Below are positions 54,013-59,642 of a stretch of DNA of 64,000 nt, in pieces. The DNA comes from an uncultured virus (IMG/VR IMGVR_UViG_3300046524_000073) (Duplodnaviria; Heunggongvirae; Uroviricota; Caudoviricetes): the IMG/VR virus record IMGVR_UViG_3300046524_000073; one strand, 5' to 3'. Within the stretch, counting starts at the first letter, position 1. The number at the start of each line of letters is the position of its first letter. Position numbers and translations under genes: made by a program. The notes under the pieces were generated by a model, which searched no databases, was not told the DNA's origin, and saw only the letters and a program-made list of their open reading frames with translations.

Positions 54013-54357
54013 TTAAGCCGCCCTCTGCGCAATCACTTCTTCCAGGATCGTCAGATTTGACTGACGAGCGAGCCATTGCTGAACGCCCCAGTTACCGACT
54101 GCCGCCGCCCACGCATTCAGCTTTTCAGCCGAGAGATTGCGTCGCGTCGGTTTGTCGTCTTGAGCGAGGTAATCCGAGATGTGCGACGGATAACACTCGA
54201 TACGTTCAGCAAGAGTCCGCAATGTCATTGCCTTGATCCTTCGATTCGTCCAGGACAAGCGCACGACTTCCCGGAAGGTTTTGCAGGCCAATACGTCGTC
54301 TGCGGGAAGAAAGGCGGGTGCGTGCACAACGCCACCAAACAGTCTCAGCTCGTCCAT
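54013..54357 (-). CDS. CII-position transcriptional regulator
   Basis: TLAERI.CYPSHISDYL HTH; GN....QW; GGAGG RBS. Confidence 0.65.
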   Translation of the reverse strand: MDELRLFGGVVHAPAFLPADDVLACKTFREVVRLSWTNRRIKAMTLRTLAERIECYPSHISDYLAQDDKPTRRNLSAEKLNAWAAAVGNWGVQQWLARQSNLTILEEVIAQRAA

Positions 54358-54509
54358 AAAACCTCCCTGATAGTTAGAAAACATTGAATAACCGGTTGCG
54401 CCCCCAGTTGATCTGGAGCTAATTTAAAGGCGTCACGAAGACGCCTGAAAAAACGAAACCCCCTACCTACCTTTTCTTTTCCGGTACTGCCTTGAGTACT
54501 CCTGAGCTG

Positions 54510-54815
54510 CTACAGCGTTTTCTTTGCTTCTTTCGTCTTGCGACTCGCACCGCCCGTAATGCGGGCCGGCGAACACAAAACCTCGCGCATCGTCTTCCAG
54601 TCGATGTCCGGATTAAGGTCTTCGCACCGAACTCCTGTAACCTTCTCAATCAGAACGCATCGCTCGAGCGGAACACCCCGCGTCATCCAGTTGGCAATCG
54701 TCTGAGACTTAGTGCCCTCGCCAAGCAACTCGGCGAGCTTCGTGAGTCCGCCAGCCTTCTCGATCGCATCGCGAAGGGCTGGGGCGCCGGGGTGTGGGTT
54801 CGGTGTCTTCATCAT
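54510..54815 (-). CDS. cro: Cro-like repressor (YdaS-type HTH)
   Basis: AI..AGG..KLAE.LG...Q.I.NW..RGVP...IE..TGV....L.PD. Confidence 0.85.
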   Translation of the reverse strand: MMKTPNPHPGAPALRDAIEKAGGLTKLAELLGEGTKSQTIANWMTRGVPLERCVLIEKVTGVRCEDLNPDIDWKTMREVLCSPARITGGASRKTKEAKKTL

Positions 54816-54822
54816 GCTCACA

Positions 54823-54904
54823 AAGATACACGCAATGTGAGTTGTGCGCAATCATTTTGTGAGTTCACGTTGTGAGTCACAACACGTGTGTGAACGGGTA
54901 CCCT
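54823..54904. promoter_or_regulatory. OR region: pR, pRM-like -10 and operator half-sites
   Basis: Minus-strand TTGCGC (54846-51)-17 nt-TATCTT (54823-28); GTGAGT at 54837, 54859, 54872; TACCCT at 54899-54904. Confidence 0.7.
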
Positions 54905-54910
54905 TCGCCC

Positions 54911-55654
54911 ATGGAAACAACGAATATTCCGTGGCACGTTATCCAGCAGAAGCTGGACACGCTCACCAAGAACCAGGCATGGCTGGCGCTCCAGTTAAGG
55001 ACCGGAACTAACACGATCACCAATTGGAAGAAGAGGGGTGGCGCGCCGCTGGCGCGGGTGCGTGAAATAGCCGAAGCGCTGCAGTGCAGCACAGATGAAC
55101 TGCTTTCGGCTGCCGCGCAACCAACTCACATTTCAGTGGCTGCTGATGGGCCAATAAAGCGGCAAATCTCAGGCATGATTACCGATTCGCTCCAGATAGT
55201 GGGCGATATCATCGGTACGAATAACACTGAGCCAGGACCAGAAGGAACGGGACCATATCCCCTTATCTCGTGGGTTCAGGCTGGAGCCTGGGAACGAATT
55301 GTGGATAATTTTGCGCCGGGAGACGCGGAGCAGTGGATCGAGGCACCTGTAAAGGTCTCGAAGAGCTCCTACTGGCTGCGGGTATGCGGCGAGAGCATGT
55401 ATGACCCAATGGGGAAGCGCTCATTCAAAGATGGCGATTTGGTTCTGGTCGAACCTCACGCATATGCGGAGAATGGATCTCTTGTAGTAGTGCGCCTGGA
55501 TGACGAGTCTGAGGCCACGTTCAAACAACTCATCATTGAGGGAGGGCGAAAGTTCCTCAAGGCCCTGAATCCGAACTGGCCGAATCGTATCTTTGAGGTC
55601 AACGGCAACGCCACAATCTGCGGCGTCATCAAAGCCAAGACCGAGGTCTACTAG
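54911..55654 (+). CDS. cI: CI-like repressor (HTH plus S24 peptidase)
   Basis: NQAWLA...ITNW..RG HTH; VQAG cleavage site; GESM Ser; TFKQL Lys. Confidence 0.93.
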   Translation: METTNIPWHVIQQKLDTLTKNQAWLALQLRTGTNTITNWKKRGGAPLARVREIAEALQCSTDELLSAAAQPTHISVAADGPIKRQISGMITDSLQIVGDIIGTNNTEPGPEGTGPYPLISWVQAGAWERIVDNFAPGDAEQWIEAPVKVSKSSYWLRVCGESMYDPMGKRSFKDGDLVLVEPHAYAENGSLVVVRLDDESEATFKQLIIEGGRKFLKALNPNWPNRIFEVNGNATICGVIKAKTEVY

Positions 55655-55673
55655 GCCGCCAGCCTCCCGGAAA

Positions 55674-55801
55674 ACTCACGCAGTTTGTATATAGCCCGCC
55701 ACCGAGCGGGCTTTTTTGCGTCTGTACAACACATACTCACAAACCCCTACAAACAAAAACTCACAAAACGTTTGACATCAAACTCACACGACGTGTACTA
55801 T
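55674..55801 (+). promoter_or_regulatory. OL operators and pL promoter
   Basis: TTGACA (55772-77)-18 nt-TACTAT (55796-801); ACTCAC at 55674, 55735, 55759, 55782. Confidence 0.8.
55693..55717 (+). terminator. Terminator after cI
   Basis: AGCCCGC/GCGGGCT plus T-tract. Confidence 0.8.
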
Positions 55802-55851
55802 TCATCCATGGAAGCAAGCAACACCGCACCAACCACTAACCGGAGAGCGAG

Positions 55852-56079
55852 ATGAGCCAGAACGCACGTACGCAGGGGATCGCAGCATTCAATGATGTAG
55901 CGAAGCCGGTGTACCAGAATCCGTACGCTTTCTCTGCAGACCCGAATTCCGACTATGAGCAGTTTCGCCTTGGATATTTCGTGGCGCGGCACGAAGGCCA
56001 TCAAAGCGTTATCCAAAACATGCGCGGCGCGGAACTGCCAGCCGGATACATCAAAGGGTCGCAGCGTTACACCGCATAA
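55852..56079 (+). CDS. First pL gene, hypothetical
   Basis: GGAG RBS; NPY motif. Confidence 0.7.
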   Translation: MSQNARTQGIAAFNDVAKPVYQNPYAFSADPNSDYEQFRLGYFVARHEGHQSVIQNMRGAELPAGYIKGSQRYTA

Positions 56080-56120
56080 AGCTCAAAACCGCCGCAGAGC
56101 ACCGCGGCAACAGGAAGGAA

Positions 56121-56223
56121 GGTCGAAACCCGGGCCAAACCTAGTGCATGAGTGCACACGCTATAGGCGAGTACCTAACAGTACGCACCCGGGTCTGAGC
56201 GTAACGCGCTCACTGACGAGACC
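56121..56223 (+). ncRNA. Type II hammerhead ribozyme
   Basis: GGTC-GAAA-CCCGGG...CCCGGG-TC-TGAGCG-TAACG-CGCTCA-CTGACGA-GACC: complete core and three stems. Confidence 0.88.
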
Positions 56224-56278
56224 GTGAATAACCGCAGTAGAGGAACACAGGCGCACGGCGTCGCCTGGTGGGGCAAGA

Positions 56279-56290
56279 GATCTTTAACAA
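56279..56290 (+). promoter_or_regulatory. boxA-like antitermination element
   Basis: GATCTTTAACAA versus consensus GCTCTTTAACAA; early in the pL transcript. Confidence 0.6.
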
Positions 56291-56291
56291 C

Positions 56292-56600
56292 GTAGTGGTT
56301 TGAGTTTGATCAGAGCTGGCGGCTTGTGTCCGTACGCGGAACATGACGAGCAGTTGGCCATGATAGTCGCCAGCCCTGATCACATTCGAACCACTGCAAC
56401 AGAAGGCATACCAGTAATGGCGGGGCCAACGCGCTACCCCGGAAAAGATCGGCGCCTATCAAGCCGTGGTGGTTCGGCTAGTGATCCACGGTGAGATTGA
56501 TAGTGCATCCATACCGAGAGCCGACCGCGTCGGGTGTAACTCGGGTGGATGCACATGCTTCACCAGTGCGCATTTGAAGAGTGCGCAGTGGCGTGGCATT
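56292..56600 (+). ncRNA. Array of long stem-loops (possible RNase III sites/structured RNA)
   Basis: 31-bp interrupted stem at 56292-56397; further stems CTATCAA/TTGATAG, GTGCATCCA/TGGATGCAC, TGCGCA/TGCGCA. Confidence 0.6.
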
Positions 56601-56621
56601 AACTAAAGGACGGAACATCTG

Positions 56622-57095
56622 ATGCTCACTGCCGAGAGACTGCGCGAGGTAATTGACTACGACCCGGAGAGGGGAGTTCTTATCTGGAAAAAATCGGGCA
56701 ACGTTGCCGGCTATGTCGGGAAAGAAGGTTATCGAAATGTGTGTGTCGATGGTCGTATGTACCGAGAGCACAGACTCGCGTGGCTTCATGCAACAGGGAG
56801 TTGGCCCAAACAGAGCCTCGACCACATCAACGGGTCGCGGGCCGACAACAGATTAACCAATCTGCGCGAAGCGTCTGGAATGCAAAACGCTAAAAACATG
56901 AAGCGGCCCGTCACAAACACGTCTGGACTTAAAGGTGCTAGTTGGCACAAGCGTTCAGGAAAGTGGCAGGCGGCCATCATGTGCGATCGGAAACTAAAGC
57001 ATCTCGGGTTATTTGAGACTGCGGAAGAAGCGCACGCTGCCTATTGTGAGGCCGCATCAAGGCTGCACGGAGATTTTGCCTGCCTTGATCGCTGA
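56622..57095 (+). CDS. HNH endonuclease with AP2 domain
   Basis: HRLAW...WP...DHING.R.DN...NLR; SG.KG.SW...LG.F.TAEEA. Confidence 0.9.
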   Translation: MLTAERLREVIDYDPERGVLIWKKSGNVAGYVGKEGYRNVCVDGRMYREHRLAWLHATGSWPKQSLDHINGSRADNRLTNLREASGMQNAKNMKRPVTNTSGLKGASWHKRSGKWQAAIMCDRKLKHLGLFETAEEAHAAYCEAASRLHGDFACLDR

Positions 57096-57105
57096 GAGTT
57101 GCAAC

Positions 57106-57215
57106 GCTGGATGTTGAGAGGATGGGAATGCGCGAGTGGTGATCGCGTACTCGGCTAGTTGTCGATGTCCCGAAGCTGGAAATTCACCCCCAGCCCCATC
57201 CCTTGAACACCCAGC
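57106..57215 (+). ncRNA. tRNA-shaped four-way RNA with complementary (kissing) loops
   Basis: GGATGGG/CCCATCC closing stem, three hairpins, loop GGTGA complementary to loop TCACC. Confidence 0.55.
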
Positions 57216-57323
57216 ACGATTCTCCTTGCATCTGCCGATTCTCGCGAGTCGGTAGCGGCGAGGGGTATCTAGTATCAACACAGATTAGTACTGCTACGCG
57301 CTGCGGCGCACAAAGGAACTGGA

Positions 57324-58028
57324 ATGGGATGCGACATTCACCTGTACGTTGAAAAGAGAATCGATGGTAAGTGGATCGCTCAAGGCACGTTCACCCGCGA
57401 AGACGTCGAATCTGATGGCTCTGGCGGCTGGATCGATGGTGGGCAAGACATCTACGACGGGCGGAACTATGACCTCTTCGCAATTCTCGCCGACGTGCGG
57501 AACGGTCGCGGATTCGCTGGCGTAAAGACTGGCGAGGGATTCAACCCGATTTCTGAGCCGAGGGGTATCCCCGAAGACGCCAGCGAACAGTACAAAGAGA
57601 TCGCCCAACGCTGGGATTGCGACGGCCACTCCCACTCGTATTTCACCGTCCGCGAGTTGCTTGACTACGACTGGACTCAGGAAACCGGGAAACAGGGCTG
57701 GCTCAGCATAGCCGAGTGGGAGAAATGGTCTCGATGGGATAGAGAGCGCGGCCTCGGTCCGGATTCGTGGTACGGCTTTATCGACGGCGGAGGAGTCAAG
57801 CATATCTCCACAGAGGATGCCGATGCGCTGTTCAAGGGTGTCGGTTGGTCGGATCGCGACACGGTTGTCGCCAAACACCCACAGACCTACGTGCAAGCCT
57901 CATGGGGAACACCGTATTACCGAGCAGCTGGCAACTTTATCGAAGAAACGTTGAGCAAATTGCTCAAGCTGGCCGGCGGAACGAAGGGTATCGATGACGT
58001 TCGGATCGTCTTCTTCTTCGACAACTGA
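57324..58028 (+). CDS. Phage hypothetical protein
   Basis: MGCDIH..VE...RNY.LFAILADVRN...PRG.P.D.S...HSHS...RIVFFFDN. Confidence 0.85.
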   Translation: MGCDIHLYVEKRIDGKWIAQGTFTREDVESDGSGGWIDGGQDIYDGRNYDLFAILADVRNGRGFAGVKTGEGFNPISEPRGIPEDASEQYKEIAQRWDCDGHSHSYFTVRELLDYDWTQETGKQGWLSIAEWEKWSRWDRERGLGPDSWYGFIDGGGVKHISTEDADALFKGVGWSDRDTVVAKHPQTYVQASWGTPYYRAAGNFIEETLSKLLKLAGGTKGIDDVRIVFFFDN

Positions 58029-58040
58029 TCGGAGGCTCAG

Positions 58041-58181
58041 ATGTTCTACAGCGACTACGGATTTCGATCCTATTCCGCCCGGATTTCGAACTACATCATC
58101 CGATTCGTTTCGCACTATGACGAGTACGTTAATTCTAGGCTTGTTCGGAGCGTGGATCTGAATGACGTCGTCTGGTGCTGA
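58041..58181 (+). CDS. Small hypothetical protein (46 aa)
   Basis: GGAGG RBS; translated by hand. Confidence 0.5.
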   Translation: MFYSDYGFRSYSARISNYIIRFVSHYDEYVNSRLVRSVDLNDVVWC

Positions 58182-58230
58182 CTCACAAACGCATCACGAA
58201 CCCACTTTGCGACTCATATACGAGGCAATC

Positions 58231-58371
58231 ATGAACATCTACCACTGGATAGCAGTCATCTTTCTCGCTGATTTGGCGCTCGCAATGACTGTGTTTCTAC
58301 CGTTCGTGCGTGGCGCGGACGAACGCCGCGGTGAGGCGCCGAAGCGGAAAACTAAGTTGGGGGTGCAGTGA
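58231..58371 (+). CDS. Small membrane peptide
   Basis: GAGG RBS; one TM segment and basic tail. Confidence 0.55.
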   Translation: MNIYHWIAVIFLADLALAMTVFLPFVRGADERRGEAPKRKTKLGVQ

Positions 58372-58625
58372 TGGACCAGAAGACGATAGTCATTTGGGAC
58401 CAAATCGGACAGGACGATATCAAGTTCGCAATTCTCGACGGCGATTACAGCGAACTGGATGGCATCTACATCAACAACAGTCTTCAGGAGCCGGAAGACG
58501 TCAATCGCCTCTCTGATCTGATCTACGACGACAACGGACGAGAGATTGCGACGTTCGTCGACAAGTTCCCGGTCGATCTTGTGAAAGAGGGCGCGGTCGT
58601 CATCGTTGCGGGATTCCTGCCATGA
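58368..58625 (+). CDS. Acidic hypothetical protein
   Basis: Coupled overlaps. Confidence 0.7.
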   Translation: MMDQKTIVIWDQIGQDDIKFAILDGDYSELDGIYINNSLQEPEDVNRLSDLIYDDNGREIATFVDKFPVDLVKEGAVVIVAGFLP

Positions 58626-58753
58626 AAACTGAACTAGACGAGTGGATCGAATTCACTCGCGCATGGCTTGACGAGGAAACCCGCAAGCAACGTGAGGTCG
58701 ACGAGGCCGACTGGATTCGCTTCAGAGCGAAGGTGCTGGGGCCGTTTGATTGA
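58622..58753 (+). CDS. Small hypothetical protein (43 aa, MKTELDEWIEF...)
   Basis: ATGA overlap; translated by hand. Confidence 0.55.
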   Translation: MKTELDEWIEFTRAWLDEETRKQREVDEADWIRFRAKVLGPFD

Positions 58754-58779
58754 ATACTAAGCGACGGCCGCTCTTAGCT

Positions 58780-59185
58780 TCTATAAGCCGCAGCGGTGAG
58801 ACGCCGCAACGAACACAGCGCCCAGCCGAAGGTGGCCTCGAAACATCGGCAGATGCAGCGTTACGGGTTTGCCAGCAATGGCTCGCGATTGCATACCGCG
58901 GCTCCTTCCCCGGCTTCTGAAAATGCTTGGCGTGGTCCCCGTCTGTGCGGACTCGACTGTTCCTTGTCGCTAGTAAAGAAGTGCGTGATGCGTTTGACAG
59001 CCGGGAAAGACCGGCGCCCTGACGAGTAGCGGATTCCCACTGCAAGAACGCCGGATAACCGGGGACCGGCCCGCTACTCGCCAGGGCCAAAGCGGATGCC
59101 ATCTATTGATCCTGAGCCGTTATTGCGTAGCTAGCCGTAGGCGGAACAACTCAGGTGAAGGTGGATGCAGCGAGTAACCCTGACA
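58780..59185 (+). ncRNA. Structured non-coding region
   Basis: Multiple stems, including GCCCTGACGAGTAGCGG/CCGCTACTCGCCAGGGC and CCTGAG/CTCAGG; no credible ORF. Confidence 0.5.
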
Positions 59186-59202
59186 AACATTTCGGAGTCC
59201 AT

Positions 59203-59412
59203 ATGGGACAGCATGCAAACGCCCGTGCTTGGGCAGAGTACGAGCGCCTTGACCGTCTGAAGCAAGACGAGCAGCTAGAAAGTGATCCGCCGCTGACTGA
59301 GGAAGAAAAGGCTGCGGCATGGGATGACTCCTACTGGGAGCGGCTTGACGCTGCGGCGCGGTATGCGGGGGCGGGGCGGCATGTGTGGGGCGAGATGGGG
59401 AGGGCGGGATGA
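59203..59412 (+). CDS. Hypothetical protein
   Basis: GGAG RBS; ATGA overlap. Confidence 0.65.
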   Translation: MGQHANARAWAEYERLDRLKQDEQLESDPPLTEEEKAAAWDDSYWERLDAAARYAGAGRHVWGEMGRAG

Positions 59413-59642
59413 AGATCATTCAACTGGCTGTGGCGCTGAATAACGAAGGCGAAGAAAGCCTGTATGCGCTCTGCGATGACGGATCGGTATTGCAGCGGCG
59501 TTGGGCATCAAAACCGAGGGCAGTCGTTGGCCGTGCTCCAGGAACTACCTATATGGATGGCTGGACTGAGGGCTGGATTCCCGTCGACGCCGGTTGGTCG
59601 GTTGCCGTAAAGCACCCCGAAGATACCCGGAGCCAATCATGA
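59409..59642 (+). CDS. Hypothetical protein
   Basis: MKIIQLA...LYALCDDG. Confidence 0.7.
   Translation: MKIIQLAVALNNEGEESLYALCDDGSVLQRRWASKPRAVVGRAPGTTYMDGWTEGWIPVDAGWSVAVKHPEDTRSQS

What the first reader, a model, noticed from the sequence alone, without database searches (positions are those of the whole stretch)
56121..56223. Complete type II hammerhead ribozyme in the pL transcript, with a large structured stem III insert
Seen: stem II GGTC (56121-24)/GACC (56220-23); GAAA (56125-28); stem III CCCGGG (56129-34)/CCCGGG (56188-93); cleavage triplet GUC (56193-95); stem I TGAGCG/CGCTCA; CUGACGA core (56213-19). All canonical core nucleotides are present in the sense orientation. A 53-nt insert in stem III has its own hairpins (GTGCA/TGCAC, CCTA/TAGG, GTAC/GTAC). 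Predicted cut after 56195, separating the first pL gene from the boxA element and downstream operon. Established: hammerheads occur in prophage intergenic regions, but their role there is largely unknown. The insert could be a regulatory (ligand or protein) module (inference).
Basis: partly seen in the sequence, partly recalled or inferred. Interest (0 to 1): 0.85.

Follow-up and report, generated by a model that had tools for sequence, protein, structure and literature searches.

The report
Phage hammerhead ribozyme with extra arm
A soil bacterial virus carries a genuine self-cutting RNA motif of a common phage kind near the start of one of its early messages; its unusual extra 53-letter arm is missing from close relatives and shows no sign of being a sensor.

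Summary
Observation confirmed: a complete type II hammerhead at 56120-56223, the only descriptor hit in the window. It belongs to a large, stereotyped phage subfamily that Rfam scores below threshold. A model built without the window scores it 57 bits. The subfamily shows no pseudoknot; an unselected loop I U and an A just 5' of stem II (113 of 114 loci each) point to a U-A tertiary contact, and the window has both. Eight distinct related leaders carry the hammerhead with stem III of 12-45 nt, so the 53-nt insert is not conserved. It folds no better than shuffles (z -0.47) and I found no homologue. Long stem IIIs recur (37 others, mostly unrelated). Five of 10 loci with the same leader motif lack a hammerhead, and a decayed half-unit lies just upstream. 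Best reading: an unregulated cut after 56195 that separates the first gene from the boxA-like leader, with the insert a tolerated passenger. Cleavage was not tested. This scan has noted phage type II hammerheads many times on other DNA.

The parts
54872..55654 (+). cI-like repressor (HTH + S24); nearest relatives are in Paraburkholderia genomes
   Evidence: PHROG 4 at E 3e-34; PF00717; 87% and 82% identity in L183 and L184
55693..55718 (+). Intrinsic terminator-like site after cI
55772..55801 (+). Sigma-70-like promoter (PL equivalent), overlapped by ACTCAC repeats that also occur inverted on the cro side (candidate operators)
   Evidence: 10 of 12 match, only site in 54300-59500, but chance mean is 2.2; repeats; function inferred
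55852..56079 (+). First PL gene, 75 aa, no family; this slot holds different genes in relatives
   Evidence: No PHROG or Pfam hit; Atlas hits under 0.9; no relative in IMG/VR
56077..56120 (+). Decayed half-hammerhead gene-head unit: stop codon, mutated stem II strand and GAAA, hairpin, then an orphan RBS-like stretch running straight into the hammerhead
   Evidence: 33 of 36 nt identical to the coreless unit of L208 and 28 of 36 to the 5' part of the full hammerhead of L044; continues into RBS + ATG in two contigs of run X2
56120..56120 (+). A just 5' of stem II; predicted partner of the first loop I U
   Evidence: A in 165 of 167 motifs, 113 of 114 loci; not fixed by the viral-contig search pattern
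56121..56128 (+). Stem II 5' strand and G12-A13-A14-A15.1
56129..56193 (+). Stem III: 6 G-C pairs closing the insert
56135..56187 (+). 53-nt insert; best fold has three short hairpins (a four-way junction); lineage-specific
   Evidence: z -0.47; singleton and the only three-hairpin fold among 38 long stem IIIs; absent from orthologues
56194..56195 (+). U16.1-C17; predicted cut between 56195 and 56196
   Evidence: Established hammerhead chemistry; not tested here
56196..56212 (+). Stem I, 6 bp, with a 5-nt loop beginning with U (56202)
   Evidence: All 6 pairs change on both sides in the subfamily; U in 166 of 167
56213..56223 (+). Catalytic core C3-A9 and stem II 3' strand
56224..56278 (+). 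Conserved non-coding leader module, found with and without an upstream hammerhead
56279..56289 (+). boxA-like site, one mismatch to the published consensus; relatives L135, L188 and L193 match it fully
56293..56395 (+). Long, very stable hairpin (possible RNase III-type site; inference)
   Evidence: z -7.28

Best explanation
This is an active, unregulated type II hammerhead of the stereotyped phage 'gene-head' subfamily. While the PL transcript is made, stems I-III assemble around the core, the first loop I U docks on the A just 5' of stem II, and the RNA cuts after C56195. That leaves the first gene's message with a 2',3'-cyclic phosphate and gives the leader, the boxA-like site and the downstream early genes a new 5'-OH end, so the variable first gene and the rest of the operon can decay and be translated separately. 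In most members the unit sits between a stop codon and the next RBS. Here it was left in front of the leader after an intervening gene was lost. The 53-nt insert lies at the tip of stem III, the most variable arm of the subfamily, and is a tolerated, lineage-specific passenger. Shown: anatomy, subfamily membership, covariation in relatives, non-conservation of the insert. Inferred: cleavage, the U-A contact, effects on mRNA fate, the gene loss.
For: Every core nucleotide and stem is present and unique in the window. Model R1, built from 51 short-stem-III members with the window excluded, gives 57 bits, E 1.2e-15 (rough), the only strong hit in the window. In that alignment 99.6% of cells pair, and 6 of 6 stem I pairs and 4 of 6 stem III pairs change on both sides, above 500 of 500 shuffles and all slid controls; stem I and III pairing was not required when picking the rows. 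Unselected A and U in 113 of 114 loci match the U1.7-A Hoogsteen contact described in PMC11875169 (passages). Stop triplet within 7 nt upstream in 111 of 167 versus 24 of 167 in a control window; 28 of 114 loci hold two or more copies; RBS plus start within 45 nt in 135 of 167. Prophage hammerhead clusters cleave in vitro and in E. coli, and 14 of 18 consensus hammerheads tested were active (PMC3088659, sections 6 and 11). Orthologues have 12-23 nt stem IIIs with the same or covaried stem I. All 43 distinct long-stem-III matches keep 6 of 6 stem I pairs (two of them are nested short hammerheads).
Against: No cleavage or RNA data exist for this sequence. In the full transcript the nearest-neighbour model gives stem II only 0.04-0.28 probability, and up to 0.48 from 56077. 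Short-stem-III orthologues are similarly low (0.0-0.78), and the model ignores core tertiary contacts. The hammerhead is missing from 5 of 10 loci with the same leader and half-units recur, so selection for cutting here may be weak. The insert is the only three-hairpin fold among 38 long stem IIIs.
Confidence: 0.65

Rival explanations
1. Near-neutral relic: the motif is inherited with a shuffled intergenic module and cuts slowly, not at all, or without consequence in this context, because stem II is out-competed and no RBS follows.
For: Low stem II probability in context; no RBS plus start within 45 nt, unlike 135 of 167 members; 5 of 10 related leaders have no hammerhead; a decayed half-unit lies directly upstream and coreless half-units occur in L204, L208 and L228.
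Against: Core, both tertiary-contact bases and all stems are intact. At this leader position stem I has changed with pairing kept (L044, L135, L193, L207, run X20), which indicates selection on the fold in this setting.
Confidence: 0.17
2. Regulated switch: cutting competes with an alternative fold in which the 5' strand of stem II (56118-24) pairs with the boxA-like site (56279-85). The insert, or a protein bound to it, or ribosome arrival at the first gene's stop sets the balance, so self-cleavage gates antitermination of the early-left operon.
For: The alternative 7-bp pairing is in the minimum-energy fold of 56077-56300, with probability up to 0.85 for some 3' ends. A comparable duplex (-3.0 to -7.2 kcal/mol) is possible in L044, L135, L188, L191 and L193. 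The hammerhead ends 37-57 nt before the boxA-like site in 8 of 9 leaders. The insert has an unusual multi-branched fold.
Against: The pairing probability swings from 0.05 to 0.85 with the endpoints chosen. The duplex is absent in L130, L131 and L207, and stop codon plus AGG is complementary to boxA by composition alone. The insert is absent from all orthologues and has z -0.47. The leader persists without a hammerhead in half of the loci.
Confidence: 0.1
3. The main role is at the DNA level: the repeated unit gives short homology between genes, so the small variable early genes are swapped or lost at these junctions, and cutting is incidental.
For: Half-units keep the 5' motif without the core; the window looks like a deletion between an RBS and the hammerhead; the flanking genes differ in the relatives inspected.
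Against: Stems I and III diverge in sequence while keeping pairing, which is selection on RNA structure and lowers DNA homology.
Confidence: 0.08

Closest known systems
Type II hammerhead ribozymes of bacteria and prophages (Rfam RF02276; Perreault et al. 2011, PMC3088659)
   Same: Same permutation (stem II open), invariant core, GUC site, phage early-operon setting; often several copies flanking variable small genes.
   Different: No loop I-3' tail pseudoknot (22 of 147 versus 21.0 expected); 4-bp stem II, fixed 6-bp stem I with 5-nt loop. RF02276 misses the window and the short orthologues L131, L185, L188 and L191 at E <= 1, and gives other members at most 36.1 bits against a threshold of 37. 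Stem III carries a 53-nt insert. Followed by a non-coding leader rather than an RBS.
Hammerheads with the U1.7-A(loop II) Hoogsteen contact (Schistosoma type I, sTRSV type III; as described in PMC11875169)
   Same: Unpaired U seven nucleotides after the cut and an A next to the distal end of stem II.
   Different: Here the A is the single-stranded nucleotide 5' of an open stem II, not the last base of a closing loop. The contact is inferred from conservation only.
Phage lambda early-left leader (pL, nutL boxA, RNase III hairpin; recalled, not from a call)
   Same: Repressor-controlled promoter, boxA-like site and a long hairpin at the head of the early-left operon.
   Different: A short gene and a self-cleaving RNA come before the boxA-like site; no boxB or N gene was identified.

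Membership tests
Hammerhead ribozyme (class) | Invariant core C3-U4-G5-A6-N7-G8-A9, G12-A13-A14, A15.1-U16.1 and H17 | tested here: met
Hammerhead ribozyme (class) | Three helices around the core, supported by covariation | tested here: met
   6-7, 4 and 6 pairs in the window; covariation among 51 subfamily members
Hammerhead ribozyme (class) | [quoted passage not shown] | tested here: inconclusive
   Conserved U and A present; contact inferred, not observed
Hammerhead ribozyme (class) | Mg-dependent self-cleavage after H17 | not testable with these tools
   Needs an assay; no RNA run was listed
Type II permutation | Stems I and III closed, stem II open | tested here: met
Rfam RF02276 Hammerhead_II model | Score at or above the gathering threshold (37 bits) | tested here: not met
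   No hit at E <= 10; short-stem-III orthologues also missed, best subfamily member 36.1 bits, so the insert is not the only cause
Pseudoknotted type II consensus (Perreault 2011) | At least 4 bp between loop I and the 3' tail | tested here: not met
   Window has at most 2 bp; subfamily at chance level. The paper calls this a majority feature of type II, not a universal one.
Phage gene-head type II subfamily (model R1, built here) | Significant score with a model built without the window | tested here: met
   57 bits, E 1.2e-15 (rough); next window hit 12.1 bits
Phage gene-head type II subfamily (model R1, built here) | Stop codon just upstream and RBS plus start just downstream | tested here: not met
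   Stop is 41 nt upstream and no RBS plus start follows within 45 nt; the leader-type orthologues mostly share the missing start
Allosteric or ligand-controlled ribozyme (riboswitch-like) | Conserved, covarying sensor domain among homologues | tested here: not met
   Insert absent from 8 of 8 distinct orthologous leaders; no homologue found; z -0.47
Nus-factor boxA | Consensus GYTCTTTAANA (PMC5725501) | tested here: inconclusive
   10 of 11 in the window; full matches in L135, L188, L193; binding not testable

The most novel reading that the evidence does not exclude
A natural phage ribozyme switch: hammerhead folding and cleavage compete with a pairing that hides boxA, and the four-way-junction insert (through a phage or host protein, or a metabolite) tunes the choice, coupling RNA self-cleavage to antitermination and so to the lysis-lysogeny decision.
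Probability: 0.07. Interest if true: 0.8.

Novelty: new member of a known kind. Interest (0 to 1): 0.3.

Why it matters
What bacterial and phage self-cleaving ribozymes do is still open (PMC6765202, passages; PMC6155905, passages). This locus offers a tidy natural series for testing it: the same early-left leader occurs with a short-arm hammerhead, with this long-arm one, with coreless half-units and with none, in prophages of a cultured soil genus. It also shows that a very common phage subfamily, probably using a single U-A contact instead of a pseudoknot, falls below Rfam's threshold. The insert itself matters only if it proves to modulate cleavage, which the evidence does not suggest.

Tried and rejected
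Rfam at gathering score: nothing in the window. blastn of 55700-56700 against named phages: no match. No own genome is held; the nearest virus record G001 has no match to the immunity-leader region. Orthologue pattern in genome contigs: 0. An 18-nt piece of the insert in IMG/VR: 0; the insert against 226 loci plus the window: only 11-15 nt matches at E 5. Relatives of the 75-aa gene in IMG/VR: none; Atlas hits under 0.9, leads only. Sequencing runs: no RNA holder listed, so no end mapping; runs with small shares were not used except X14 and X20, which I laid. Pseudoknot with the 3' tail or 5' flank: chance level. Promoter inside the insert: none by consensus scan. Other hammerheads in the window: none of type II and no type I/III-like core. 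A distant 3' half for the half-units (a gene-sized stem III loop): no core with a matching stem II seen in L204, L208 or L228. The Burkholderiaceae-wide pattern search gave 2 of 401 genomes and no new orthologue. In one search, 14 of 213 genomes matched the loose pattern; I kept 4 as real by visible stem pairing and dropped 10. Literature: searches showed no paper describing this subfamily or hammerheads beside boxA. The type II alignment of Perreault 2011 (supplement pages 982-998) lies beyond the 300 pages that could be read, so I cannot say whether members are listed there.

Full report
Observation. A type II descriptor finds it alone on both strands of the window; 150 dinucleotide shuffles gave 10 loose hits, 1 medium hit and none with stems this long. 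On its own it folds into the hammerhead (z -2.17). Rfam reports nothing at gathering score and only a partial Hammerhead_3 match. Contigs of two other rhizosphere runs cover the insert unchanged, so it is real DNA; these runs may belong to one campaign.

Setting. The window appears to be a temperate phage: integrase, baseplate, capsid and portal families among 21 ORFs scanned, none of host type and 12 without any family. The cro-like and cI-like genes, replication genes and an Erf/SSB recombination block flank the finding. The nearest cI relatives are in two Paraburkholderia genomes (87% and 82%). After cI come a terminator and the only sigma-70-like site in 54300-59500 (10 of 12; chance mean 2.2, so the position rather than the score makes it plausible). 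Then follow a 75-aa gene without family, the hammerhead, a non-coding leader, a boxA-like site with one mismatch to the consensus in PMC5725501 (passages), a very stable hairpin (z -7.28) and an HNH-AP2 gene. No terminator-like site lies on the + strand between the promoter and 59500.

Family. From these loci, the four long-arm loci and the window, my descriptor gave 170 distinct motifs; 167 passed a stem filter and 3 were dropped. Two positions not fixed by the pattern are almost invariant: the A just 5' of stem II (165 of 167) and the first U of loop I (166 of 167), or 113 of 114 each when one motif per locus is counted. These match the U1.7-A Hoogsteen contact described in PMC11875169 (passages); the contact itself is inferred. 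The pseudoknot typical of type II hammerheads (PMC3088659, section 6) is not enriched: 22 of 147 against 21.0 in shuffled pairings, and at most 2 bp in the window. In 51 aligned members 99.6% of cells pair, and all stem I pairs and 4 of 6 stem III pairs change on both sides. A model built from them without the window scores it 57 bits. Most members sit between a stop codon (111 of 167, control 24) and an RBS plus start (135 of 167), and 28 of 114 loci hold several copies. RF02276 gives the best member 36.1 bits (threshold 37) and misses the short orthologues altogether. This is the arrangement Perreault et al. described: hammerheads flanking variable small prophage genes, cleaving in vitro and in E. 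coli. Earlier notes of this scan report the same kind many times (325 findings matched the words); I treat them as leads only.

Orthologues. Eight distinct related leaders carry this hammerhead: L131/L130, L044/L070, L135, L185, L188, L191, L193 and L207, with stem III of 12, 23, 45, 12, 23, 23, 23 and 12 nt against 65 here. The repressor-promoter context was read from ORF lists only for L130/L131 and by eye for the rest. L188 and L191 share the window's stem I, core and leader nearly letter for letter. Runs X2 and X14 hold short-arm alleles that join the window at 56192, and X20 holds one with a covaried stem I. Among 10 distinct loci with the 23-nt leader motif, 5 have a hammerhead within 1.2 kb upstream (3 directly adjacent) and 5 have none. 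In a DNA search of 213 Paraburkholderia genomes, 14 matched some part of the region and none of the listed matches covered the insert.

A decayed neighbour. Directly after the first gene's stop, 56077-56120 is 33 of 36 identical to a unit in L208 that has the 5' half of the hammerhead, a hairpin, an RBS and a start, but no core. L204 and L228 hold similar half-units, and in L044 the same hairpin is stem III of a complete hammerhead. In two contigs of run X2 this unit runs on into an RBS and ATG; in the window the RBS-like stretch abuts the hammerhead. The simplest reading (inference) is that a gene between the two was lost, and that hammerheads in these leaders are often gained, truncated or lost.

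The insert. Alone it is no more stable than shuffles (z -0.47). A metagenome scan for long stem IIIs gave 51 stretches and 43 distinct motifs, all with a perfect stem I. After removing two nested cases and duplicates, and adding two from viral loci, 38 distinct stem IIIs of 40-69 nt including the window fall into 26 similarity clusters. The window's is a singleton and the only three-hairpin fold. So long arms are a recurrent, tolerated feature, and this one is unusual in shape but unsupported as a conserved module. Without diverged copies, covariation could not be tested.

Alternative fold. With downstream sequence, the 5' strand of stem II can pair with the boxA-like site. Its probability ranges from 0.05 to 0.85 with the endpoints chosen; a comparable duplex is possible in 5 of 8 relatives tested and absent in 3 (L130 and L131 are near-duplicates). 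Stem II is marginal in context both here and in most short-arm orthologues, which weakens any prediction from these models and also counts against assuming efficient cleavage.

Verdict. A real type II hammerhead, a new member of a known kind. It most likely cuts without regulation after 56195 and separates the variable first gene from the leader and downstream operon (confidence 0.65). A near-neutral relic (0.17), a boxA-gating switch (0.10) and a mainly DNA-level role (0.08) remain possible. Papers seen: PMC3088659 (passages, sections 6 and 11 part 1, supplement list, search of held supplements, first part of the cut dataset; type II alignment not readable); PMC6155905, PMC11875169, PMC6765202, PMC10085705 and PMC5725501 (passages only); others as search listings only. 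Hammerhead numbering, cleavage chemistry and the lambda leader layout are recalled knowledge.

Noticed in passing
window 56077-56120; L208, L204/L236, L228: Coreless half-hammerhead units (5' motif plus hairpin, usually then RBS and start) recur after the first PL gene in these phages; whether they keep a function is unknown.
   Followed up: partly
window 56224-56289; L044, L185, L188, L191, L203, L204, L228, L229, L232: A conserved leader module ending in a boxA-like site occurs with or without a hammerhead; it may be the antitermination (nut-like) signal of these phages.
   Followed up: partly
L083, L133, L147, L151, L154, L158, L169, L172, L173, L175: One cluster of 10 related 40-41 nt stem IIIs shares a small side hairpin with a similar loop. 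This is a better candidate for a conserved stem III module than the window's insert.
   Followed up: no
L146:1060-1141: A long stem III contains a sigma-70-like promoter (6 of 6 at -35, 17-nt spacer, 4 of 6 at -10).
   Followed up: no
L003/L081/L082, L024/L025: Single phage contigs with 7-8 or more subfamily hammerheads, about one per intergenic gap.
   Followed up: partly
L170:1501-1601 (-), L163, L004: Duplicated 5' halves: a second 5' motif nested inside an apparent long stem III.
   Followed up: no
window 54837-54880 and 55674-55790: ACTCAC repeats in inverted orientation on the cro side and the PL side: candidate repressor operators.
   Followed up: no
window 56293-56395 and 56400-56610: Very stable long hairpin and further non-coding hairpin modules; 56400-56502 is 98% identical in G077, and 56289-56400 is skipped in a contig of run X20.
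   Followed up: partly
window 56622-57095: HNH-AP2 endonuclease gene inserted in the leader; absent at this place in the relatives inspected.
   Followed up: no
L044:2236-2321: tRNA-like element (Rfam tRNA, 44.4 bits) in the leader of a related phage.
   Followed up: no
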